This document shows positions 10,352 to 64,000 of a stretch of 64,000 nucleotides of DNA, in pieces; position 1 is the stretch's first letter, and the number at the start of each line of letters is the position of its first letter. The DNA lies in the NCBI GenBank assembly GCA_021780535.1, contig JAJXYN010000012.1, forward strand, positions 5,688 to 69,687. Reading direction: 5' to 3'. The notes beneath the pieces are model-generated. The model ran no database searches. It was not told where the DNA came from and was given only the letters and a program-made list of their open reading frames with translations. Source of the DNA: a bacterium. GTDB taxonomy: Bacteria > Patescibacteriota > Patescibacteriia > JAGPKW01. The position numbers and the translations under genes were made by a program.

Positions 10352-10369
10352 AGAGGATAGTTAAAATAT

Positions 10370-10427
10370 CTAAATATAAAAATATTTAAAAGAAAAAACT
10401 TTTTGTATTTAGATATTTCTATATTTT
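10370..10427 (+). repeat. intergenic element family, copy 3 (partial): CTAAATATAAAAATATTTAAAAG...GATATTTCTATATTTTAT
   Basis: Same modules as 8482-8550 and 33803-33895. Confidence 0.4.
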
Positions 10428-10429
10428 AT

Positions 10430-21270: not shown

Positions 21271-24200
21271 ATGAATAAGAAATTATTTTTTATTATTTCT
21301 GCTGGAATAATGTTTTTAGTAATTTCTTCCTTTTTGTTGTGGAATTTTGTATTAAAGAATAAATTTCTTGATAATAATGTTTTGGATCGTTATAAAAATG
21401 AATTCTCTCTATCTAATAACAATTTAAAATATGAACCATTTTTTTTAGTTCCAAGTAAAGTTTCAGAAGGTGGTTATATTTCTATTTCTGTTCCATCTGG
21501 CTTCACCGAAGAAGATGTAAAAAATAGTTTAAAATTTAATCCTGAAATAAAAGGTGATTTTGTTGATTTGAAAAATGATAAAAAAATAGGATTTAAGCCT
21601 AGTTCTGATTTAAAAATAGGGCAAGTTTTTGCTGCTTCTGTTACTTCTTCTTTAGGCTCTAATATGTCTGCTGATTTTGTTGTTGCCGAAAAACCAGAGA
21701 TATTAAATATTTTTCCAAATGAAGGAAGTGAGGTTGACCCGATGTCAAATATAACTATTATTTTTAATAGGCCAATAGTCCCATTGTCTATTGTTGATGT
21801 TATGGATAATGTTGATCTACCAATAACTATAACTCCAAAAACAGAAGGTAGATTTAAATGGATTAGTACCAATACTTTACAGTTTATACCTAATAACGGT
21901 CTTGTGTCTTCTAATAATTATAAGGTTCAAATTAATGATGGGTTTAATTCTACAGATGGTGTTAAAATAAAAGGTATAACAAGAACTTTTAAAACTAAAA
22001 TTTTAAGATATGATTCAATTGTTTCTAATAAATCTATTGTTGTTTATAATAATCCTTTTTCTATTAAATTTAATCAAAATTTTGATTTAGAAAAAACTAA
22101 AAAAGAAATTATATTAAAAGATTCAAATAATAATAATGTTGATTTTATTGCTGAATATGGATTAAATAATAAAGTTATAGATAAAACAGTATTAGTTGTT
22201 TATAAGAAACAAGATAAGTATGGAAGAAATAAATTTTGGGATTTTGAATCTAATTATTATTTAAAACTAAATAAAGCATATCCAGAAAATGGGGATATTA
22301 TTTTAGATAGTAGTTATGCTGTAAATATAGTAACAACTAAAGCTTATTCTCAAGTTTTTGCATTATCTGATAGAAGTAATTTGGTGCGAAATGATGTTTT
22401 TGATCCAAAAGGGAAATTAGCTATTAGTTTTTATGAAGATATTGATTTAGAAAAAACTATTTTTAATTCTGATAAAATTAAAAGTAAAGTTTATGCAAAA
22501 AAATGTAAAGATGAAGAATTAATAATGCCTAACTGTGATCAAGAGGATGATAAAAAAACTGTTTATTTAACATTTGATGATTCAAAAATAAAATTAGGTG
22601 AGAGTTTTAATATTAATTTGGAGAGCATTATTAATACTGCAGGTCTAAAAATTAATAATAACAATATCTCTATTTCTGTAAAAGCTTTTGATTCTTTAAA
22701 AATTCTTTCTACTTTTCCAAAAAACGGGAGTATTGGTTCTGATTTAAATACTTTTGTAATTTGTTCTAATAATCCATTAACACCACTACTTGTTGAAGAT
22801 GTTAAGAAACAATTTAAATCTAATATAGAATTTGAGCCTACTTATTTGCAAAATTCTTATTATGTTGATGCTGGTGCTGATAAAAATTATGTAAAATGTA
22901 ATATTGGAGAATATGAAACAAGATTATCTTATCTTGGCTTTGCTCCAAATTCAAATTATCAAATAGATTTTAATGTTTCTGATAATTTTGATCAGAATGC
23001 TAATTATTCTGTTAATTTCTCTACTACCAATGTAGATTATAAGACTTTAAATTTTTTTCATTATCAAGGGAAATATAATGTAACAACAAAAGATAAAACA
23101 AATTTAACTTTCGCTGGTTATAATATGGATTTTGTTGATATAAATGTGTGTAAGGTTACAGCGGAAGATATGCTTTATTATCTTACAAAAAATCCAAACT
23201 ATGCTGATAATAACTCTACTTTAAAATGTTTAAATTCCATAAATAAGCGTATAGATTTACCACGAAAATATTGGGTTAAAAATTATTTTAAAGTTGATTT
23301 AAAAGATTATTTTAATGAAGATTATGGTCATTATATTTTTAGCTTTACAAATCCTTTATATAAAGATTCTAGCGGGAAACAAGTCTATGAAAGAAGTTAT
23401 TTAACGGTTACGAATCTTGATGTTGTTGAGAAAAAAATCAATTCAGCCGAAGATTTAGAGCTTGGATCTGTGAATACAAGGGTTAATTATTTAAAAAATT
23501 TATATTTTGTAACTAAAATTTCTGATTTATCTAGTATTGCAAATGCTGATGTTGAAACTTATGTTACAGACAATTTAGCTAAAGATGGTAAAACGAAAGC
23601 TACAGATAAAGATATAAATTCTGGTAATTTTATTACTACCATTAGAAAAGTTTCAAGTAATAAAACTGGTAGTGATGGTGTTGCTAATGTTGAATCTGTA
23701 TATAAAGCAACTGGGGCTATTGTTAGAGTTGGAAATGATTCAGCTGTAATTACGAGTAATGAAAGTGGTTTGGGATATGCTAGTGATGCTTATAATTCAC
23801 AAGCTGTTTATCTTTATTCTGATAGACCTATCTATAAACCAGGGGATAGTGTTGGATTTAAAGGTATATATCGCATAGGTTATGATGGCGATTATCAAGT
23901 GTTTAAAGAGAAGAAAATCCCTGTAAAGATATATGATTCTAACAATAATGAGGTTTATAATAAAGAACTTGATGTTGATGATTTTGGATCTTTTTCTGGT
24001 TCATTTATTTTAAGTTCTAATGCTTCTGTTGGAACTTATAGAATAGAATCTAAAAATTATAATAGTTATAATTTTGATGTTCAAGAATATGTTCCAGCGG
24101 CTTTTAAAATTGATGCTAAAGTCAATAAAGATGAATTTATTGCTGGTGAAAACTTTAATATAGATTTAAATGCTAGTTATTATTTTGGAGCCCCACTTGA

Positions 24201-27200
24201 AAATGCAAAAGTTGATTATACTATTACGAGTACTGATTATTATTTTGATAAATATAAAGGAGATGGGTATTATAATTTTATAAATTCATCAGGTGATTAT
24301 TACAGAGATTATTTTGCTTATAGAGGTAGTACTGATCTTGTTAATGGTAAGGCTGTTATTAATGGGAAATTAGATTTTGAAAAATTTTTTAAAGAAGATA
24401 ATAGAGGTAGTAAAATATTTAATGTTTATATTAATATTACAAATTCTACTGGAAATTCTATAACAACTGTTAAATCTTTTATAGTTCATGCTGGTAAATA
24501 TTACATTGGCATAAATACTGATAAATATTTTCTTGGGAAAGGTGAAAATTTTAATTTAAAATTGAAAACCGTTGATACAAATGGAAATAAGGCTTCTCTT
24601 AATAATATTGATTTGAAAATTAATAAGGTTACTTGGATTTATAATAAAAGAAAAGAAGTTGATGGTTCTTATTATTATAACTGGGAAAGAAAGTATGATC
24701 TAATAAAGGAAATTACTGTTAATACAAATTCGTTAGGTGATTATTCTTCTAATTTTAATTTAAAAGATGAAGGAGAATATAATGCTGTTGCTACTTTTGA
24801 AGATGATAATGGTAACAATATTTCATCTTCTACTGATTTATATGTTTATGGTAGTGGAAGTGTTTCTATAAGACCTACAAATGATACAAGTTTAGACATG
24901 ACTGCTGAAAAAGTTGGTGATTTGAATGTCGGAGACAAAGCAAAAGTAATTATTAAATCCCCTTATAAAAATGCTAAAGCTTTTATATCTATTGAAAGGG
25001 GTAGGGTTTATTCTTATGAAATAGTTGATATTAATCAAAATATTTATGAATATTCTTTTGATTTAAAGAAAGAATATGCACCCAATGTTTACTTATCGGT
25101 TGTTTTAATTTCTTCTAAACCAGAATTAAAATATGGAAATTTAAGTTTTCAAGTTAATTCTAAAGATAAAGAATTAAATATTGATTTGAAAACAAATAAA
25201 GAAACGTATTTACCTGGTGAAAAAGTTTTTTGTGATATTAATGTCAATGATAGTAATGGAAAACCTGTTTCTACTGAATTATCTATGGCTGTTGTTGATA
25301 TGAGTGTTCTTGCGTTAAAGGGTAACCCTAAAAAAGATCCTGTTTCATATTTTTATAATTATTTTCCATTAAATGTGGCCACATCTTCTAATTTGAAAAA
25401 CATACTTAATGAAATTGATGTTGCTAATTCTACAAAAGGTGGGTCAGGAGCAGAGCCTGGAGATTTATCTAAAAAGAAAAGAGGAGAATTTAGAGATACT
25501 GCATTTTGGGGGTCTATTATAAATACGGATGCTAATGGGTTTGCTCATGTGGAATTTACATTGCCAGATAATCTTACAACTTGGCAAATAGAAACAGTTG
25601 GAGTTACAAAAGATACAAAATTAGGTGTTAATTACAAAGAATTCGTGTCAAAAAAAGAATTAATGTTAACACCTTTAAAACCTAGATTTGTTGTTATTGG
25701 TGATGAATTTCTTGTTGGTGCTAAACTATTTAATCAAACAGGGAACGATCAAATTGTAGATATTGCTTTTGATAGCGGTTATTTAGAATTTAAAGATCAG
25801 AAAAAAAATTTAAAAATAGAAATAAAAAATGGGGAAAGTAAAAATATTTATTTTAAAGTTTATGCCCCATTAACACTTAATATTGTCAATACTAATTTTT
25901 CAGTATCTGCTAAAAATTCTAAATATGAAGATTCTTTTGTTGATAGTATAAATATAAAAACTAATGATGTTTTTGAGACTACTGCTACTTCTTCATATTC
26001 TAAAAATAATGTAAAAGAATATATTTATTTGCCAGAAAATATTTCAAAAACAAAAGGAGAACTTACCGTTAATGCTAGTAATACATTATTTCCTTATATT
26101 AAATCAGCTGTAAAATATATATCAGAAACAAATGATAATTCAACAGAAGGGGTTATTTCTAAAATTATGACCGTATTAAGTTTGAAGAAATTAAATAATT
26201 TAAAACTTACAGATAATATTGATCAGATAAAATATAATAATATTTCTTACGGTATTGATGAAGTTATTCCTGTTTTGCTTTCTGATTTGTATAAAAATTA
26301 CAGAAAATATGATGGTTTTGTTTATTATGCTGATTCTTATTATGTTGATTATTATTTAAATCTTTATGCTTTTAATACATTGACTAGTCTTAAAGATAGT
26401 GGAATTACAATTTCTGATGATATTTATAAAGATTTACAATCAACTATATTGAATAAAATAAATAATAATAGCGATTTGTATTCTGATAAAAATACTATAA
26501 TTGCTACTACTTATTCATTATCAAATTCTTTAAAATATAATGTTATTAATATAGATAGTTTAACATCTATTATCAATGGGTATTTGAAAAATAATAAATT
26601 TTTAGAATTAGATTCTTCAAATTTTTCATTGATTTATTTGATTGATATTATTAATAATAATAAATTAGATAACAATAATATTGATAAAATTTATAATATT
26701 TTGGAAAATAGAATTCAATTTGATTCTCGTGGGGCTTTCTTGCAGCCAGTTAATCCTATTTTAAGATTATATGAAAATTCTGTTTCTGATACAGCTTTAT
26801 TTGTTGATGAATTTTCTAGTTTGAAAAAAGATTTTGTTTCTTATGATAAATTACTTATGTGGCTTAATTCATCAAAAAACAACGATGGATATTGGAATAA
26901 TGAGGTTAATACAAAGATGGTTATGAATGCTTTTATTTCTTATATGGAGTTTACTTCTTCTATTTCTTCTTCATTAAATACCACTACTAATCAAATAGAT
27001 ATTTTAGTTAATGATAAAAAAATCAATGGAAATGTTGTACCAATATCTAATTTAAAAACGGATTTACTCAATTCTGTTTCTATAAATAAAAGTGATAAAA
27101 ATACTGGTTTGTATTATGATATTGCACTTAAATATTATGTTCCAGCAAACCAGATTAGTAAAACAGATGAAGGATTTGTTATTGATAGGGGATTTTATAG

Positions 27201-27648
27201 ATTAAGTGATAAAAAATTTGAAAATAAGGTAAGTGATGCAAGGGTTGGGGAAGTTTTAAATGGAAGAATTGAAGTTGTTGTTCCGAAAGATAGAAATTAT
27301 GTGAATATTGATTCTTATATTCCTGCTGGGTTTGAACTTGTAAATTTTTCTTTTACTACTGAAAATCAAAATAATTATATTGATAATAAAAATAATCAAT
27401 ATAATCAATGGCAAAATTATTATATAGCTCCAGATGAACAAGATTTATATCCTGATTATCAAGAAATTAGAGATAATGAATTGTTTTTATTCAAGCAAAC
27501 ACTAACTCCTGGAATTTATAAATTTGATTATTATGTGAGGGCTTTAATTCCTGGTAAATATAGTTTTTTACCATCTTATATCTATGAAAAATATACTCCA
27601 GAAAATTTTGGAAGAACCGATGGATCTGAATTTGTTATAAATCAATAA
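21271..27648 (+). CDS. alpha-2-macroglobulin-family large extracellular protein (2,125 aa), N-terminally membrane-anchored, apparently thioester-less
   Basis: N-terminal TM/signal. It has MG-domain-type DRPIYKPGDSVGFKG and LPDNLTTWQIETVG (A2M 'PDSITTW'-like) motifs. No CxEQ thioester motif was found. Confidence 0.7.
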   Translation: MNKKLFFIISAGIMFLVISSFLLWNFVLKNKFLDNNVLDRYKNEFSLSNNNLKYEPFFLVPSKVSEGGYISISVPSGFTEEDVKNSLKFNPEIKGDFVDLKNDKKIGFKPSSDLKIGQVFAASVTSSLGSNMSADFVVAEKPEILNIFPNEGSEVDPMSNITIIFNRPIVPLSIVDVMDNVDLPITITPKTEGRFKWISTNTLQFIPNNGLVSSNNYKVQINDGFNSTDGVKIKGITRTFKTKILRYDSIVSNKSIVVYNNPFSIKFNQNFDLEKTKKEIILKDSNNNNVDFIAEYGLNNKVIDKTVLVVYKKQDKYGRNKFWDFESNYYLKLNKAYPENGDIILDSSYAVNIVTTKAYSQVFALSDRSNLVRNDVFDPKGKLAISFYEDIDLEKTIFNSDKIKSKVYAKKCKDEELIMPNCDQEDDKKTVYLTFDDSKIKLGESFNINLESIINTAGLKINNNNISISVKAFDSLKILSTFPKNGSIGSDLNTFVICSNNPLTPLLVEDVKKQFKSNIEFEPTYLQNSYYVDAGADKNYVKCNIGEYETRLSYLGFAPNSNYQIDFNVSDNFDQNANYSVNFSTTNVDYKTLNFFHYQGKYNVTTKDKTNLTFAGYNMDFVDINVCKVTAEDMLYYLTKNPNYADNNSTLKCLNSINKRIDLPRKYWVKNYFKVDLKDYFNEDYGHYIFSFTNPLYKDSSGKQVYERSYLTVTNLDVVEKKINSAEDLELGSVNTRVNYLKNLYFVTKISDLSSIANADVETYVTDNLAKDGKTKATDKDINSGNFITTIRKVSSNKTGSDGVANVESVYKATGAIVRVGNDSAVITSNESGLGYASDAYNSQAVYLYSDRPIYKPGDSVGFKGIYRIGYDGDYQVFKEKKIPVKIYDSNNNEVYNKELDVDDFGSFSGSFILSSNASVGTYRIESKNYNSYNFDVQEYVPAAFKIDAKVNKDEFIAGENFNIDLNASYYFGAPLENAKVDYTITSTDYYFDKYKGDGYYNFINSSGDYYRDYFAYRGSTDLVNGKAVINGKLDFEKFFKEDNRGSKIFNVYINITNSTGNSITTVKSFIVHAGKYYIGINTDKYFLGKGENFNLKLKTVDTNGNKASLNNIDLKINKVTWIYNKRKEVDGSYYYNWERKYDLIKEITVNTNSLGDYSSNFNLKDEGEYNAVATFEDDNGNNISSSTDLYVYGSGSVSIRPTNDTSLDMTAEKVGDLNVGDKAKVIIKSPYKNAKAFISIERGRVYSYEIVDINQNIYEYSFDLKKEYAPNVYLSVVLISSKPELKYGNLSFQVNSKDKELNIDLKTNKETYLPGEKVFCDINVNDSNGKPVSTELSMAVVDMSVLALKGNPKKDPVSYFYNYFPLNVATSSNLKNILNEIDVANSTKGGSGAEPGDLSKKKRGEFRDTAFWGSIINTDANGFAHVEFTLPDNLTTWQIETVGVTKDTKLGVNYKEFVSKKELMLTPLKPRFVVIGDEFLVGAKLFNQTGNDQIVDIAFDSGYLEFKDQKKNLKIEIKNGESKNIYFKVYAPLTLNIVNTNFSVSAKNSKYEDSFVDSINIKTNDVFETTATSSYSKNNVKEYIYLPENISKTKGELTVNASNTLFPYIKSAVKYISETNDNSTEGVISKIMTVLSLKKLNNLKLTDNIDQIKYNNISYGIDEVIPVLLSDLYKNYRKYDGFVYYADSYYVDYYLNLYAFNTLTSLKDSGITISDDIYKDLQSTILNKINNNSDLYSDKNTIIATTYSLSNSLKYNVINIDSLTSIINGYLKNNKFLELDSSNFSLIYLIDIINNNKLDNNNIDKIYNILENRIQFDSRGAFLQPVNPILRLYENSVSDTALFVDEFSSLKKDFVSYDKLLMWLNSSKNNDGYWNNEVNTKMVMNAFISYMEFTSSISSSLNTTTNQIDILVNDKKINGNVVPISNLKTDLLNSVSINKSDKNTGLYYDIALKYYVPANQISKTDEGFVIDRGFYRLSDKKFENKVSDARVGEVLNGRIEVVVPKDRNYVNIDSYIPAGFELVNFSFTTENQNNYIDNKNNQYNQWQNYYIAPDEQDLYPDYQEIRDNELFLFKQTLTPGIYKFDYYVRALIPGKYSFLPSYIYEKYTPENFGRTDGSEFVINQ

Positions 27649-33705: not shown

Positions 33706-33802
33706 TTTCTTTAACTTTAAAGGTTTTTTGATATTTTTAACACATTAATAACATGTTATGTGTTTTTTTATTTTAAATAGTTGTGTAGAATGGGATTTAA
33801 CA

Positions 33803-33895
33803 AAAGTTGAAATATAAAAATATTAAAATATGCAAAAGTTTTTAAATGTTTCTATATTTTACTTTTAAATGTTTCTATATTTTACTTTTTAATAT
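33803..33895 (+). repeat. intergenic element family, copy 2: GTTGAAATATAAAAATATTAAAA..., then a 24-nt unit TAAATGTTTCTATATTTTACTTTT x2
   Basis: 22/23 identical to 8482-8504; TTTCTATATTTT block repeated. Lies directly upstream of dnaB. Confidence 0.5.
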
Positions 33896-35296: not shown

Positions 35297-35392
35297 AAAA
35301 ACTAATAATAATGTTTTCTTTTCATGGTGTTTCGCCCAATTAAGATATCACATGAGCTTCACAAATGAACGAAAACATTATTATTAGTTTTT
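35297..35392 (+). repeat. hairpin element family, copy A: 22-bp perfect inverted repeat enclosing a conserved roughly 53-nt core
   Basis: AAAAACTAATAATAATGTTTTC / GAAAACATTATTATTAGTTTTT flank the core TTTTCATGGTGTTTCGCCCAATTAAGATATCACATGAGCTTCACAAATGAAC. TGcTATAAT follows immediately at 35394-35402. Confidence 0.6.
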
Positions 35393-35436
35393 ATGCTATA
35401 ATTTAATATAAAGTAATCAAGTTAATTGCTATTATT

Positions 35437-36903: not shown

Positions 36904-36914
36904 ATTAAAATAAA

Positions 36915-36950
36915 AAATGTAGATGTTTATTATCTACATTTTTTATTTTT
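36915..36950 (+). terminator. bidirectional terminator between dnaX and trmD
   Basis: ATGTAGAT-gtttatt-ATCTACAT followed by TTTTTATTTTTTT. Confidence 0.6.
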
Positions 36951-46368: not shown

Positions 46369-46381
46369 TTTATAAATAAAA

Positions 46382-46410
46382 AATCTCAGATTAATTTCTG
46401 AGATTTTTTA
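46382..46410 (+). terminator. bidirectional terminator between dnaJ and rplT
   Basis: AATCTCAGA-ttaatt-TCTGAGATT followed by TTTTT. Confidence 0.65.
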
Positions 46411-46761
46411 TCATGCCATCATTTTTTCTGCAACTTTTGCAAATATGACATGATTTTCTTTTGATAATTGAGATAATACTTTTCTATCTAAAAGAGAACC
46501 AGATTTTCTTACTTTATTCATGAATTTAGAATAGCTATAATCAGGGTTTACTATTTTTAATCCATTGTTGATAAGTATATTCCAAAGAGCTTTATTAGTT
46601 CTTTTCTTTTCTTTTCTTCCTTTGAAAGATTGAACTCCAGCGTGTAATATAGCTGTTTTAGCATAAGAAATAAGGTTTTTTCTTCCATATTGGAATCCTT
46701 TTACTCTTGCTAATATATTCTTTCTTCTTTTTAAATGATGCATTCCTCTTTTAACTCTCAT
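46411..46761 (-). CDS. rplT: 50S ribosomal protein L20
   Basis: MRVKRGMHHLKRRKNILARVKGFQYGRKNL... is the L20 consensus. Confidence 0.9.
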   Translation of the reverse strand: MRVKRGMHHLKRRKNILARVKGFQYGRKNLISYAKTAILHAGVQSFKGRKEKKRTNKALWNILINNGLKIVNPDYSYSKFMNKVRKSGSLLDRKVLSQLSKENHVIFAKVAEKMMA

Positions 46762-49726: not shown

Positions 49727-49799
49727 TAGGTGTTAGCCAAGCGGTTATGGCGCCTGCTTTGGGAGCAGGAGATCGTGGGTTCAATTCCCATACACCTAA
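49727..49799 (+). tRNA. tRNA-Pro (anticodon UGG, G37); U1-A72 first pair
   Basis: TAGGTGT-TA-GCCA-AGCGGTTA-TGGC-G-CCTGC-TTTGGGA-GCAGG-AGATC-GTGGG-TTCAATT-CCCAT-ACACCTA-A. Confidence 0.8.
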
Positions 49800-49801
49800 T
49801 A

Positions 49802-49830
49802 GGCTTCGAAACTATTTCGAAGCTTTTTTA
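49802..49830 (+). terminator. terminator after tRNA-Pro
   Basis: GCTTCGAAA-ctat-TTCGAAGC followed by TTTTTT. Confidence 0.65.
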
Positions 49831-49933
49831 TTTTGTAAAAAAAGATTGTAAATATATGATAATAGTGTAAAATGAATTGTATGTTTTGTTAATTTTATCA
49901 ATTTTTTGTGAATTTATTTAATGCATTAAATTT

Positions 49934-50012
49934 AACTATAATATTTTTTTTCATGGTGTTCCGTTTAATTAAGATATTAAAGGAACTTACAAATGAATAA
50001 AAATATTATAGT
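49934..50012 (+). repeat. hairpin element family, copy B: 15-bp perfect inverted repeat with a different sequence from copies A/C, same core
   Basis: AACTATAATATTTTT / AAAAATATTATAGTT flank the core TTTCATGGTGTTCCGTTTAATTAAGATATTAAAGGAACTTACAAATGAAT. Confidence 0.6.
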
Positions 50013-50050
50013 TAAATTTTAAAATATAAAACGTTATTAAAATTTAAAAA

Positions 50051-51826
50051 ATGAATAAATATAAAATAAAATTAATTGAATTATTAAAAACCGTGAATAT
50101 TAACGGTGTTAGTCTTTCCGATATTCCAAACAGTTGGCTAAATCAAAAAATAGAATCAAAAATAGATTTTCTAAATAGAGATGAAAAGTCTTATAATTTT
50201 GTTTATGGATTAGTTGAGGCTCCGAAGGATTTGAAAAATGGAGATTTTTCTTTTCCTTGTTTCTTTTTTGCTATGAAAGGGGTTGATTTGGTAAAAAATC
50301 CAAACGAAGCTGCTAATATAATTTATTCTCAAATTTTAAATAATAATATTTTTGATGTTTCAGTTGCTGGTCCTTTTTTGAATTTTAAAATTAAGGAATC
50401 TATTTTAATTGATGAATTTTCTAATTATAAAGAAAATTTAGATTTATTAAAAAATATTGGAAATAATAAAAAGATATTAATTGAATATTCGTCTCCAAAT
50501 ACTAATAAATCTCAACATCTTGGTCATTTAAGAAATAATCTTTTGGGTGTTTCTTTATCTAATATTTTTAGAGATTGCGGTTTTAATGTTGTTACTAGTT
50601 GTATTTTTAATGATAAAGGAACGGCAATGGCTAAGACTATTTGGGGGTATATGAAATTTGGGAATAACTCTGAGCCGAATGATATAAAATCTGATAAATT
50701 TGTTTCTGAATTTTATGTAAAAGCAAGTCAATATGAAAAAGAACATCCAGAAGTTACTGAAGAAATTAATGAAATAAATAGAAAGTGGGAGAATGGAGAT
50801 GTAAAAGTTGTGGCTATGTGGAAAAAGCTTGTTGATTGGGTTTATGAGGGCTATAAAGAAACTTATGAAAAATTAGGTTGTACTTTTGATTATAAATATT
50901 ATGAAAGTGATATTTACAAAAAAGGCAAAGAAATATCTCAAGAAGCATTTAAAAATGGAATTTTGAAGGAAGGTGATAGTGGGGCTATTGTAACAAATTT
51001 AGAAAAATATGATTTGCCGGATACTATTGTTATTAAATCTGATGGTACTAGCCTTTATATTACTCAAGATATTTATTTAGCAAAATTGAGAAATGAAGAA
51101 ATTTGTCCAGATAAAACTATTTATATAGTTGCAAATGAACAAAATCTTCATTTTAAACAATTGTTTGCATTACTTGACCAATTACATATTGGTAAACGTG
51201 AAAATTATTTTCATTTGAATTATGGATATGTGACTTTGCCTACCGGTAGAATGAAGAGTAGAGAAGGAACTGTTGTTGATGCTGATGATTTGATTGATAG
51301 TGTTGTAAAGGAAGCGCAATTAATTGCGCCTGGACAAAAAAATGTTGCGGAAGAAATAGGTCTTGGTGCTGTTAAATTCCAATTTTTAAAAGTGGATGCT
51401 TTTTCTGATTTTGTTTTTGATCCTATTAAATCTATTGAATTAACAGGAGATACGAGTGTTTATATTCAATATGCTTATGCAAGAATTAACTCAATATTTA
51501 ATAAATTAAATATTGATAGTTTAAAATTTAATAATTTAAAATTTAAAAATATAAAATTAGAGAATGAAGAAATTAATCTTATGAGGGAGATTTTAACTTT
51601 TAATGATTCTATGGAAAAAGTTATTGAAACCTATTCTCCATCTTTTCTTTGTAAAAAATTGTTAGATATTGCAAATGCTTATAATTCTTTTTATCAAAAA
51701 TGTAGAATTTTGGATTTAGAAAATGATGATTTAAAGAATTTTAGACTTGAATTGAGTAGAATAACGTCTGTTTATATTAAATATGGATTAAATTTATTAG
51801 GTATTAATATTGTTGATAAAATGTAA
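50051..51826 (+). CDS. argS: arginyl-tRNA synthetase
   Basis: HIGH motif SSPNTNKSQHLGHLRN and the class I anticodon-binding C-terminus. Size is 591 aa. Confidence 0.9.
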   Translation: MNKYKIKLIELLKTVNINGVSLSDIPNSWLNQKIESKIDFLNRDEKSYNFVYGLVEAPKDLKNGDFSFPCFFFAMKGVDLVKNPNEAANIIYSQILNNNIFDVSVAGPFLNFKIKESILIDEFSNYKENLDLLKNIGNNKKILIEYSSPNTNKSQHLGHLRNNLLGVSLSNIFRDCGFNVVTSCIFNDKGTAMAKTIWGYMKFGNNSEPNDIKSDKFVSEFYVKASQYEKEHPEVTEEINEINRKWENGDVKVVAMWKKLVDWVYEGYKETYEKLGCTFDYKYYESDIYKKGKEISQEAFKNGILKEGDSGAIVTNLEKYDLPDTIVIKSDGTSLYITQDIYLAKLRNEEICPDKTIYIVANEQNLHFKQLFALLDQLHIGKRENYFHLNYGYVTLPTGRMKSREGTVVDADDLIDSVVKEAQLIAPGQKNVAEEIGLGAVKFQFLKVDAFSDFVFDPIKSIELTGDTSVYIQYAYARINSIFNKLNIDSLKFNNLKFKNIKLENEEINLMREILTFNDSMEKVIETYSPSFLCKKLLDIANAYNSFYQKCRILDLENDDLKNFRLELSRITSVYIKYGLNLLGINIVDKM

Positions 51827-58238: not shown

Positions 58239-58258
58239 TCTTGTTTTAATATATAAAT

Positions 58259-58344
58259 CTAATTAATAATGTTTTCTTTTCATAGTGTTCCGCTCGGTTA
58301 ATTTTTAAATGAGCTCACAAATGAATGAAAACATTATTAATTAG
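58259..58344 (+). repeat. hairpin element family, copy C: 18-bp perfect inverted repeat, same core
   Basis: CTAATTAATAATGTTTTC / GAAAACATTATTAATTAG flank the core TTTTCATAGTGTTCCGCTCGGTTAATTTTTAAATGAGCTCACAAATGAAT. Confidence 0.6.
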
Positions 58345-58370
58345 ATAATTAGATTTATTTTTAAAATTAT

Positions 58371-62620: not shown

Positions 62621-62695
62621 TGGGGAATCGCCAAGTGGTAAGGCTCCGGCCTTTGGAGCCGGCATGCGTAGGTCCGAATCCTACTTCCCCAGCCA
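62621..62695 (+). tRNA. tRNA-Gln (anticodon UUG); U1-A72 first pair, 3-bp D stem
   Basis: TGGGGAA-TC-GCC-AAGTGGTAA-GGC-T-CCGGC-CTTTGGA-GCCGG-CATGC-GTAGG-TCCGAAT-CCTAC-TTCCCCA-G-CCA. Confidence 0.8.
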
Positions 62696-62825
62696 TCCTT
62701 CGCATAGCTACGGCTGGCGATGCCAATTTGAGAGATAGACCGTGATGGGTCTATTTTTTGTTGCAAATAGAATGTTTTTGGAAATAAAAAATAACTCTAG
62801 TTTTTTTGTTAGAGTTATTTTTTAT

Positions 62826-64000
62826 TTATTTTTCGATATAAATCACTTCATTTTCTATTTTTATATCGAATTTTTTCGCTAAATCTTTATGTTCTAATAA
62901 TTTTGAAGAAAATTTATTTGTATGTGCTTTTATTTCTATTCTTTCTTGATTTGATTCTTTCAATATTTTTTTAACTTGTTCAACTATATTTTTCATAAAA
63001 GATACTACTAAACTCCCAGCTTTATCTCTATATTCTTCTTCTACTGCTAAATCATGAATATATATACATTTTTCTTGTGTTTTTGTGTTAATTGCTGGAT
63101 AAGCCAAAGCATATCCTCTTAAAATTCCTTTTTTATCAAAATAACCAACATTCAAATTATCTATATTATTTTTTATAAAAGAATAATGACTTCCTATTAA
63201 TAAATTTTGCATTGCAACACCGCCTTCTTTTTCATGACTCTGGTGTATTTCATCTTCAAGGTACATACAAGGAATAGAATCTAAATAATCTATAGAAAAA
63301 ACGCCATTTTGTCTTATCTGTTTTTGCTTTTCTTTAGAATTATCAATAACATCTATTCTATGAGATTTTCCATTATGATTATCTATATAAGAAAGTAACG
63401 TTGATGGAATAAAATTATTGTCTGCATCATCTTTACTGCCAAGCCAACTATCTATACTAGAGTCATTCAAAGATGTTTTACCAACTATAAAATAATCTTG
63501 ATTTATATGAAGGTTTTGTTTTGTAAGTTCTTTGAACGCTTCTATATATATTTCTCCAAGATGAGAATCTTTTAGAACTATTTTATCTCTAAAGTTTTTA
63601 TTTCCTTCAATATTATCAAAACAAATAATAGGTTTTGTATTTGCGTAAAATCTTTCAAGAAAATCTTTACCTAGTTTTTCTGATAAATTTCCATTTTTTA
63701 CGCCTTCTTTTATTTTATTTAATATTTCTTTATCTTTTACATCATAATCTATAGTAACGAGAGATTGAAATATAACATTTCTTCTTGTTTTGCCAATATC
63801 TTGTTCTTCAAATGATACAGAAAATTGAAAACAACTTGGATTAAAATTATATAAGGTTCTTTTACCATCAGAAAACGAATCGCAAGATCCGGTATCATTA
63901 CCAACTGTAGCTCTTCTATAGTCATCAAATCTTAAAAACTTACCAACTATATTTAAATTACTTCCTATATTTGAAAAATCTTGTAATCTATCAATTTCTT
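62826..64000 (-). CDS. hypothetical protein, 5'-partial (continues past the window end); GNAT-like C-terminal region
   Basis: The track ORF 62826-63470 starts at an internal TTG. The same frame stays open with no stop from 63471 to 64000. The C-terminus has ...CIYIHDLAVEEEYRDKAG.... Confidence 0.5.
   Translation of the reverse strand, partial: EIDRLQDFSNIGSNLNIVGKFLRFDDYRRATVGNDTGSCDSFSDGKRTLYNFNPSCFQFSVSFEEQDIGKTRRNVIFQSLVTIDYDVKDKEILNKIKEGVKNGNLSEKLGKDFLERFYANTKPIICFDNIEGNKNFRDKIVLKDSHLGEIYIEAFKELTKQNLHINQDYFIVGKTSLNDSSIDSWLGSKDDADNNFIPSTLLSYIDNHNGKSHRIDVIDNSKEKQKQIRQNGVFSIDYLDSIPCMYLEDEIHQSHEKEGGVAMQNLLIGSHYSFIKNNIDNLNVGYFDKKGILRGYALAYPAINTKTQEKCIYIHDLAVEEEYRDKAGSLVVSFMKNIVEQVKKILKESNQERIEIKAHTNKFSSKLLEHKDLAKKFDIKIENEVIYIEK

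What the first reader, a model, noticed from the sequence alone, without database searches (positions are those of the whole stretch)
49934..50012. Hairpin element family, copy B (upstream of argS): the copy carrying the compensatory stem changes
Same conserved core as copies A and C, but both arms of the closing inverted repeat differ from A/C at several positions while remaining 15/15 complementary to each other. This is the key evidence for structural selection. It sits directly after the tRNA-Pro terminator and 38 nt before argS. It contains the 15-codon micro-ORF MVFRLIKILKELTNE.
Basis: seen in the sequence. Interest (0 to 1): 0.6.

Follow-up and report, generated by a model that had tools for sequence, protein, structure and literature searches.

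The report
Species-specific palindromic hairpin repeat, copy B
Copy B is one of at least four copies of a ~92-base hairpin-forming repeat that was inserted next to housekeeping genes in one uncultivated Patescibacteria-like bacterium; it most resembles the small mobile palindromic repeats (MITE or REPIN type) known from other bacteria, so it is real but fairly ordinary.

Summary
Copy B (49928-50019) has a perfect 21-bp outer stem, a 5-bp TTCAT/ATGAA stem and the same core as copy A (35297-35392) and copy C (58257-58346). I found a fourth, degraded copy D 8.1 kb upstream of the window. Across the four copies, 8 stem pairs changed on both sides (0 of 500 shuffles reach this).

Rfam has no match. 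The micro-ORF is not conserved. CM searches found no copy in about 250 kb from at least four related genomes. The orthologous dnaB-dnaX, rluA-leader and glycosyltransferase spacers there are short and empty. Conserved TGnTATAAT promoters show that A lies just upstream of the dnaX -10 and D lies inside a 5' UTR, so there is no common regulatory position.

Best reading (about 0.55): a lineage-specific, non-autonomous palindromic repeat of MITE/REPIN type. Its hairpin is kept by propagation or by arm-to-arm template switching, and it is co-transcribed with neighbouring genes as a long RNA hairpin. This is a new family of a known kind.

Not settled: the mobilising enzyme, target-site duplications, the total copy number, and whether the constraint acts on DNA or RNA. 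A locally selected structured RNA remains a live rival.

The parts
49928..50019 (+). Copy B, the whole element (92 nt)
   Evidence: CM hit at 82-84 bits. Fold -32.1 kcal/mol, z -9.7.
49928..49948 (+). Copy B, 5' arm of the outer stem (AAATTTAACTATAATATTTTT)
   Evidence: 21/21 complementary to 49999-50019.
49999..50019 (+). Copy B, 3' arm of the outer stem (AAAAATATTATAGTTAAATTT)
49950..49963 (+). Copy B, conserved 5' core: TTCAT (pairs with ATGAA at 49993-49997), G, GTG, TTCCG
   Evidence: Invariant or nearly invariant in all four copies.
49964..49987 (+). Copy B, variable apex (part of a local GTTCC/GGAAC hairpin)
   Evidence: Only 62-71% identity between copies, and the pairing register differs between copies.
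49988..49998 (+). Copy B, conserved 3' core: TAC AA ATGAA T
   Evidence: The G-T pair at GTG/TAC is the only plus-strand wobble pair in a stem.
49953..50000 (+). Micro-ORF MVFRLIKILKELTNE*, judged not to be a gene
   Evidence: Translations of all four copies show the start codon and reading frame are not conserved.
35297..35392 (+). Copy A, between the dnaB stop (35277) and the dnaX extended -10 promoter
   Evidence: CM hit at 100-107 bits. Perfect 22-bp stem.
35394..35402 (+). TGCTATAAT, the extended -10 of dnaX, which abuts copy A
   Evidence: Conserved together with the leader in relatives L041 and L043, which lack the element.
58257..58346 (+). Copy C, between a GT2 glycosyltransferase gene (ends 58238) and an O-antigen-polymerase-like gene
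   Evidence: CM hit at 95-107 bits. Perfect 20-bp stem. Identical in three other assemblies of the same species.
49727..49825 (+). tRNA-Pro(UGG) and its intrinsic terminator (upstream context of copy B)
50051..51826 (+). argS (downstream context of copy B)
   Evidence: Pfam domains tRNA-synt_1d, DALR_1 and Arg_tRNA_synt_N. The start codon aligns with the orthologue.

Best explanation
Copy B belongs to a lineage-specific family of short (about 90-100 bp), non-coding palindromic repeats of the MITE/REPIN kind.

Anatomy. A variable 20-22-bp AT-rich outer stem encloses two conserved inverted blocks, ...TAATRTTTTC-TT-TTCAT and ATGAA-Y-GAAAAYATTA..., and a spacer of about 40 nt whose base is conserved and whose tip is variable.

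Origin and spread (inferred). The family spread in this species after it split from its sequenced relatives. It landed in AT-rich spacers close to gene starts. The enzyme that moves it acts in trans and has not been identified.

Why the arms co-vary (inferred). The hairpin itself is the constrained feature. The arms stay complementary for one or both of two reasons: only hairpin-competent copies propagate, or the arms are copied from one another by intrastrand template switching. Copies that stop being maintained decay, as D has.

Effect where it sits (inferred). The element is carried on neighbouring transcripts: the dnaB 3' region for A, an intercistronic spacer for C, the 5' UTR for D and probably for B. 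There it would fold into an interrupted duplex of about 28 bp. Such a duplex is a plausible RNase III substrate or terminator-like block. Any effect on argS would then be a by-product.

Shown: the copies, the hairpins, the covariation, absence from relatives, and the positions relative to conserved promoters.
Inferred: mobility, the mechanism that maintains the arms, transcription, and processing.
For: Copy number and restriction to one species:
- Four copies lie in about 81 kb of the source genome. All are intergenic and all are on the same strand.
- No copy was found in about 250 kb (with overlaps) from at least four related genomes whose orthologues are 63-88% identical in protein sequence.
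- The source density would predict several copies in that much sequence.

Orthologous sites are short and empty:
- The dnaB-dnaX spacer is 41 nt in L041, against 159 nt in the source.
- The distance from the rluA-like -10 to the ATG is 27-29 nt in L034, L038 and L045, against about 175 nt in the source.
- The GT2/polymerase spacer is 17-79 nt in relatives.

No common regulatory position or functional theme:
- A lies immediately upstream of a conserved TGnTATAAT, and D lies downstream of one.
- The neighbouring genes (dnaX, argS, a wzy-like gene, an rluA-like gene) share no function.

Arm behaviour:
- The arms co-vary strongly and include a mirrored indel.
- Copy D has decayed, with 5 stem mismatches.

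Fit to the known kinds:
- Under 500 bp, inverted repeats within the 4-30 bp range, AT-rich intergenic sites and stable predicted stem-loops match the published description of prokaryotic MITEs (PMC10969869).
- Compensatory changes across a hairpin made of two inverted conserved blocks match REPINs (PMC3116915).
- There is no Rfam family at any threshold.
Against: - No target-site duplication stands out. The best flanking direct repeats are what shuffled flanks give.
- No transposase, RAYT or IS with matching ends occurs in the 81 kb available. The rest of the genome could not be read.
- The distal ends of the stem are the least conserved part (40-75% identity), while the inner stem and core are 80-100% identical. 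This is the reverse of a typical transposase-bound terminal repeat.
- Copies are only 70-79% identical overall, yet A, B and C keep perfect stems. That could equally mean selection at each locus.
- All four copies share one orientation, the same as the flanking genes. That is what a functional RNA would show.
- No filled/empty polymorphism exists among the 99.9-100% identical assemblies of the species.
Confidence: 0.55

Rival explanations
1. A cis-acting structured RNA that is selected at each locus. On the plus strand it sits in the leader, spacer or trailer of mRNAs. A long closing helix presents a conserved internal-loop motif (UUCAU-G-GUG / YAC-AA-AUGAA). A protein or RNase III recognises this to set mRNA processing, stability or termination.
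For: - Strong covariation in the closing helix, with a conserved internal loop and core.
- All four copies are co-oriented with the genes on both sides and end 31-46 nt before a start codon.
- D lies inside a 5' UTR that is defined by a conserved promoter.
- A, B and C keep perfect stems despite about 25% overall divergence.
Against: - It is absent from the orthologous sites of every relative examined, although the promoters and leaders there are conserved.
- Its position relative to promoters is inconsistent: A is upstream of the -10, D is downstream, and C is inside an operon.
- The regulated genes would be unrelated in function.
- D, the copy most certainly transcribed, has lost plus-strand pairing (-11.2 kcal/mol, z -0.5).
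- There is no Rfam relative.
- The mirrored indel is awkward to explain by stepwise compensatory mutation.
Confidence: 0.2
2. An RNA made from the minus strand, either a small antisense RNA or a minus-strand terminator. The hairpin would then be selected on the strand opposite to the neighbouring genes.
For: - In copy D, four of five stem mismatches are A.C on the plus strand, which makes them G.U on the minus strand. D folds at -23.7 kcal/mol (z -4.2) on the minus strand, against -11.2 on the plus strand.
- Copy A also folds better on the minus strand (-36.7 against -29.6) through G.U pairs in the apex.
- The apparent path G-C (A and C), then A.C (D), then A-T (B) at one pair is a wobble path only on the minus strand.
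Against: - Four of four by chance has a probability of 1/16, and it rests on one copy.
- B and C each have a plus-strand-only G.U pair.
- The consensus scan found no minus-strand promoter positioned to transcribe A or C. The one minus-strand site it lists near B (50087-50058, inside argS) is at the chance level for this AT-rich region.
- The CM scores are much higher on the plus strand only because the model was built from plus-strand sequence, so they do not bear on the question.
Confidence: 0.07
3. A family of duplicated intrinsic, possibly bidirectional, terminators or insulators between genes.
For: - Long AT-rich hairpins flanked by A-runs and T-runs are this genome's usual terminators (36907-36949, 46376-46411, 62782-62827).
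- Copy A is flanked by AAAAAAA on one side and TTTTT on the other and follows the dnaB stop codon.
Against: - B and D each lie downstream of a canonical terminator, and D lies after a promoter.
- The terminator scan does not call any copy.
- A conserved 50-nt interior is not a terminator feature.
- C has no adjacent T-run.
Confidence: 0.1
4. A small gene for a 15-residue peptide (or a leader peptide) embedded in the hairpin.
For: ATG-initiated ORFs of 13-15 codons are present in A, B and D.
Against: - C has ATA in place of ATG and a frameshift that gives a stop after 8 codons.
- The peptide sequences diverge after MVF/MVS, and no ribosome-binding site precedes the ATG.
- The minus-strand MKRKHY(Y)* ORF is likewise absent from B (note, read from the sequence).
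Confidence: 0.02

Closest known systems
Prokaryotic MITEs of the Correia (NEMIS) / ERIC type
   Same: - Short, non-coding and AT-rich, with inverted repeats of about 20-26 bp.
- Multiple copies in intergenic spacers right next to gene starts and promoters.
- Co-transcribed with neighbouring genes, where they fold into long RNA hairpins. For Correia elements these hairpins are cut by RNase III (PMC10969869).
   Different: - No TA or other target-site duplication could be shown.
- No parent IS is known.
- The outermost repeat positions are the most variable part, not the most conserved.
- Only four copies have been seen so far.
- There is no sequence similarity to any record in the phage or plasmid collections.
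REPINs (REP doublets forming hairpins, mobilised by RAYT transposases)
   Same: - Two conserved inverted blocks separated by a spacer of tens of nucleotides, forming one long hairpin of about 100 nt.
- Compensatory changes across the hairpin (PMC3116915).
- Uniform orientation within one replichore would fit single-strand mobilisation. GC skew is positive across nearly the whole window.
   Different: - No RAYT gene lies within the 81 kb seen.
- There is no GTAG-type REP signature.
- The conserved blocks are internal and are extended by a variable distal stem.
- The family is far smaller, as far as can be seen.
- REPINs have been described mainly in Proteobacteria, not in Patescibacteria.
Rickettsia palindromic elements and similar repeats of AT-rich reduced genomes
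   Same: A lineage-restricted palindromic repeat of about 100 bp in a small, AT-rich genome.
   Different: From my own knowledge, RPEs often insert in frame into coding genes. All copies here are intergenic.
Integron attC sites
   Same: A hairpin whose structure is conserved more than its sequence, with a bulge, an internal loop and a variable tip, and strand-specific orientation. Copy B even carries ATTTAAC...GTTAAAT, which matches the RYYYAAC/GTTRRRY boxes.
   Different: Those boxes are absent from A, C and D. There is no cassette array or integrase, and the flanking genes are housekeeping genes 8-15 kb apart.

Membership tests
MITE (as described in PMC10969869) | Length under 500 bp with no coding capacity | tested here: met
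   90-96 bp. The micro-ORFs are not conserved.
MITE (as described in PMC10969869) | Terminal inverted repeats of about 4-30 bp | tested here: met
   Perfect arms of 20-22 bp in A, B and C. The distal ends are poorly conserved between copies.
MITE (as described in PMC10969869) | Flanking direct repeats (target-site duplication) | tested here: inconclusive
   The best flanking repeats are 8-9 nt with one mismatch, which 137-290 of 300 shuffles also reach. GYTATAATT lies on both sides of copy A, but it is not adjacent to the element on the left.
MITE (as described in PMC10969869) | Several copies in AT-rich intergenic DNA, with transcripts predicted to form stable stem-loops | tested here: met
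   Four copies in 81 kb, all intergenic. z-scores of -7 to -10 for A, B and C.
MITE (as described in PMC10969869) | A related IS or transposase able to mobilise it in trans | not testable with these tools
   There is none in the window or its flanks. The remaining contigs of GCA_027355865.1 could not be fetched.
MITE (as described in PMC10969869) | Evidence of mobility (filled versus empty sites) | tested here: inconclusive
   Three orthologous sites are empty in related species. There is no polymorphism among assemblies of the same species.
REPIN / REP (PMC3116915) | [quoted passage not shown] | tested here: met
   The inverted conserved blocks ...TAATRTTTTCTTTTCAT and ATGAAYGAAAAYATTA... lie about 40 nt apart, and 8 pairs co-vary. 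The conserved blocks are internal rather than terminal.
REPIN / REP (PMC3116915) | An associated RAYT (Y1 transposase) gene in the genome | not testable with these tools
   No such gene occurs in the 81 kb seen.
Any Rfam 15 RNA family | Score at or above the family's gathering threshold | tested here: not met
   Only tRNAs pass in the window. At E up to 10, only generic hairpin and miRNA models at 6-20 bits against thresholds of 42-245.
Intrinsic terminator | G+C-rich stem, short loop and an adjacent T-run at the end of a transcription unit | tested here: not met
   The scan calls no copy. B and D lie downstream of canonical terminators.
Integron attC | R''/R' boxes (RYYYAAC...GTTRRRY) in every site, within a cassette array next to an integrase | tested here: not met
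   The boxes occur only in B. The neighbours are housekeeping genes.

The most novel reading that the evidence does not exclude
The family is a previously undescribed structured RNA (or single-stranded DNA) motif of Patescibacteria. A covarying 20-bp helix presents a conserved asymmetric internal loop (UUCAU-G-GUG / YAC-AA-AUGAA). A host protein or nuclease binds this loop to control expression of adjacent essential genes such as argS and dnaX, and the motif is maintained by selection at each locus.
Probability: 0.15. Interest if true: 0.55.

Novelty: new member of a known kind. Interest (0 to 1): 0.3.

Why it matters
Patescibacteria have very small, streamlined genomes and few described repeats. 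A propagating palindromic repeat there would show that such selfish or semi-domesticated hairpin elements persist even in these genomes. It would also give a marker for strain typing.

The family is also a compact example where textbook 'compensatory' covariation need not mean a functional RNA. That matters for anyone mining metagenomes for new structured RNAs. For argS and dnaX themselves the consequence is probably modest: an extra long hairpin beside their promoters or within their leaders.

Tried and rejected
1. Exact-pattern scans for the core:
- TCATRGTGTTYCG-N10-40-ACAAATGAA against 185,579 species genomes.
- A slightly looser form against JGI metagenomes and viral contigs.
- These gave only 7, 12 and 0 hits. 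None has flanking inverted repeats, and all are in unrelated GC-richer organisms, so they are chance matches.
- Caveat: the pattern was built from three copies and would have missed copy D. Absence from those collections is therefore weak evidence.

2. blastn of copy A against the phage and plasmid collections found nothing meaningful.

3. Rfam at permissive thresholds on A, B and C gave only sub-threshold generic hairpins.

4. Coding readings were rejected: the plus-strand MVFR... ORF and the minus-strand MKRKHY(Y)* ORF.

5. attC, T-box, CIRCE/LexA operator and DNA-uptake-sequence readings were considered from the sequence and dropped. The required motifs are missing from most copies. The half-repeat is not over-represented on its own.

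6. The search for a solo terminal repeat or an IS with matching ends in 81 kb found none.

7. The target-site duplication test gave nothing above chance.

8. Walking further along the source genome failed. The exact rluA-like protein was not among the proteins returned by the search, so only about 17 kb beyond the window could be added.

9. Aligning the argS upstream spacer to the relative L022 did not define an insertion point. The spacers are too diverged and carry a different tRNA.

10. A comparable hairpin in the long dnaB-dnaX spacer of L043 was looked for and not found.

Full report
**What is at the coordinates**

Window 49928-50019 reads AAATTTAACTATAATATTTTT-T-TTCAT-G-GTG-TTCCG...GGAACT-TAC-AA-ATGAA-T-AAAAATATTATAGTTAAATTT.
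- The outer arms are 21/21 complementary, and the inverted repeat extends to 27 nt at 96%.
- As RNA it folds at -32.1 kcal/mol, against -9.0 +/- 2.4 for shuffles (z -9.7).
- The minus strand and DNA parameters give nearly the same result.
- It lies about 100 nt after the tRNA-Pro(UGG) terminator and 31 nt before the argS ATG. That start codon is confirmed by alignment to an orthologue.

**The family**

- Repeat finding and pattern searches recover copy A (35297-35392) and copy C (58257-58346), both on the plus strand.
- A covariance model built from A, B and C finds nothing else in the window, even with filters off.
- It does find a fourth copy D in sequence I fetched 8.1 kb upstream of the window start (L031 632-724).
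- The source is a metagenome-assembled genome (GCA_027355865.1, also in ENA and Logan assemblies) with about 26% G+C.
- Its nearest named homologues are from Patescibacteria/Parcubacteria.
- Three further assemblies of the same species are 99.9-100% identical and carry identical copies.

**Anatomy**

The distal outer stem is the most variable part, at 40-75% identity between copies. The proximal outer stem, the 2x1 bulge, the TTCAT/ATGAA helix, the G/AA internal loop and the GTG/YAC helix are 80-100% identical. The apex is variable (62-71%) and pairs in different registers in different copies. The element can therefore be read in two ways: as a covarying closing helix around a conserved core, or as two conserved inverted blocks separated by a spacer and extended by a variable stem.

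**Is the compensation real?**

Yes.
- On A/B/C, RNAalifold gives 38 pairs, 9 with both sides changed and none broken in the outer stem.
- On all four copies, 95.5% of cells pair and 8 pairs changed on both sides. 0 of 500 shuffles reach this, and sliding the partner by 1-3 columns gives 0-1 such pairs.
- Two qualifications apply.
  - First, events are fewer than pairs. A and C differ mainly by one mirrored single-base indel.
  - Second, copy D breaks the pattern with five stem mismatches. Four of them are A.C on the plus strand, that is, G.U on the minus strand. D folds poorly on the plus strand (-11.2 kcal/mol, z -0.5) but acceptably on the minus strand (-23.7, z -4.2).

**What it is not**

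- No Rfam family matches at gathering or permissive thresholds.
- The micro-ORF is not conserved. A reads MVFRPIKISHELHK*, B reads MVFRLIKILKELTNE*, C has ATA and a stop after 8 codons, and D reads MVSCPINFRGAHK*.
- It is not one of this genome's ordinary terminators. Those are short-loop hairpins flanked by A-runs and T-runs between convergent genes. B and D each follow such a canonical terminator.
- The attC-like boxes in B are absent from the other copies.

**Comparative evidence**

I fetched syntenic loci from relatives through ArgS (63-71% identity), an RluA-like protein (86-88%) and DnaX (76-79%). Neither covariance model finds a family member in any of them. This covers about 250 kb including overlaps, from at least four genomes. 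The source density of four copies per 81 kb would predict several.

| Site | Relatives | Source |
|---|---|---|
| A | L041: the dnaB stop runs straight into TGTTATAAT, then 29 nt to the dnaX ATG. L043 keeps the same -10 and leader. | The same ATGCTATAAT plus leader follows immediately after copy A, so A sits between the dnaB stop and the dnaX -10. |
| D | L034, L038 and L045: a conserved TGTTA(T/C)AAT lies 27-29 nt before the rluA-like ATG. | About 175 nt from that promoter to the ATG, with D inside, so D is in a 5' UTR. |
| C | The operon spacer is 17-79 nt. | 150 nt, with C inside. |

The argS spacer of the relatives is too diverged to place B. Overall, the element is an insertion relative to its kin. 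It has no fixed position relative to promoters, and its neighbours have unrelated functions.

**Interpretation**

These properties are those of the small palindromic mobile repeats of bacteria.
- The published description of prokaryotic MITEs is: under 500 bp, inverted repeats of 4-30 bp, AT-rich intergenic targets often right upstream of genes, and transcripts with stable stem-loops that can be cut by RNase III. All of this fits (PMC10969869).
- REPINs add the precedent of two inverted conserved blocks forming one long hairpin in which compensatory changes are common (PMC3116915).
- Replication template switching can copy one arm of an inverted repeat onto the other. This produces multi-base and indel 'compensation' in one step (PMC8794818), which fits the mirrored indel.
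- I therefore favour (about 0.55) a lineage-specific non-autonomous palindromic repeat. Its hairpin is needed for, or maintained by, its own propagation. It is co-transcribed passively with its neighbours.

**What keeps the rivals alive**

- I could not show target-site duplications or a mobilising enzyme.
- The stem ends are the least conserved part.
- Copies are only 70-79% identical, yet three of them keep perfect stems.
- All four are co-oriented with transcription. GC skew is positive across nearly the whole region, so they are also co-oriented with replication, and the two explanations cannot be separated here.
- A locally selected plus-strand RNA (about 0.2), a terminator/insulator family (about 0.1) and a minus-strand RNA suggested by D's wobble pattern (about 0.07) cannot be excluded with four copies.

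**Limits**

- Only 81 kb of the source genome was readable.
'Not found elsewhere' therefore rests mainly on the model searches of related loci.
- Promoter assignments rest on conservation of TGnTATAAT boxes, not on transcript data.

Noticed in passing
window 8481-8551, 10364-10428, 33802-33890 (+): A second, unrelated intergenic repeat. The box AAAAGTTGAAATATAAAAATATT is followed by 1-3 tandem copies of (A)TGTTTCTATATTTTAC. The third site is directly upstream of the dnaB start codon. TTTCTATATTT occurs 8 times against 0.67 expected. It could be a promoter/operator or an iteron-like site.
   Followed up: partly
window 35394-35402; L031 581-589; L041 9960-9968; L043 9957-9965: Extended -10 promoters (TGnTATAAT) and the leaders that follow them are conserved upstream of dnaX and of the rluA-like gene across relatives of 76-88% protein identity. 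No recognisable -35 is present.
   Followed up: partly
window 62621-64000, continuing in L028 12265-21827: Directly after tRNA-Gln (62621-62695) and a terminator hairpin (62782-62827) comes a probable integrated mobile element. It carries a 1347-aa ORF, a large serine recombinase (Resolvase, Recombinase and Zn_ribbon_recom domains), a TaqI-like restriction enzyme and a LexA/S24-N6_N4 methylase fusion.
   Followed up: no
window 36907-36949, 46376-46411, 62782-62827: Perfect AT-rich hairpins of 15-18 bp with 6-10-nt loops, flanked by A-runs and T-runs. They lie at gene ends, 36907 and 46376 between convergent genes and 62782 between tRNA-Gln and a minus-strand ORF. These appear to be the genome's usual bidirectional terminators. 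They are distinct from the element family.
   Followed up: partly
window 50051-51826: Outside its own small clade, this ArgS is closest (42-44% identity) to proteins labelled Woesearchaeota/Nanoarchaeota as well as Patescibacteria. This hints at an archaeal-type or horizontally shared argS.
   Followed up: no
window 21271-27648: A 2125-residue alpha-2-macroglobulin-like protein with MG2, A2M, bait-region and bMG10 domains. This is a large investment for a small, streamlined genome.
   Followed up: no
L022 11469-11533: At the position orthologous to copy C, a relative carries a different short repeat: AATTAAGAAATTAA with tandem TTCTTAATTTC units. The spacer may therefore be a recurrent site of repeat turnover.
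   Followed up: no
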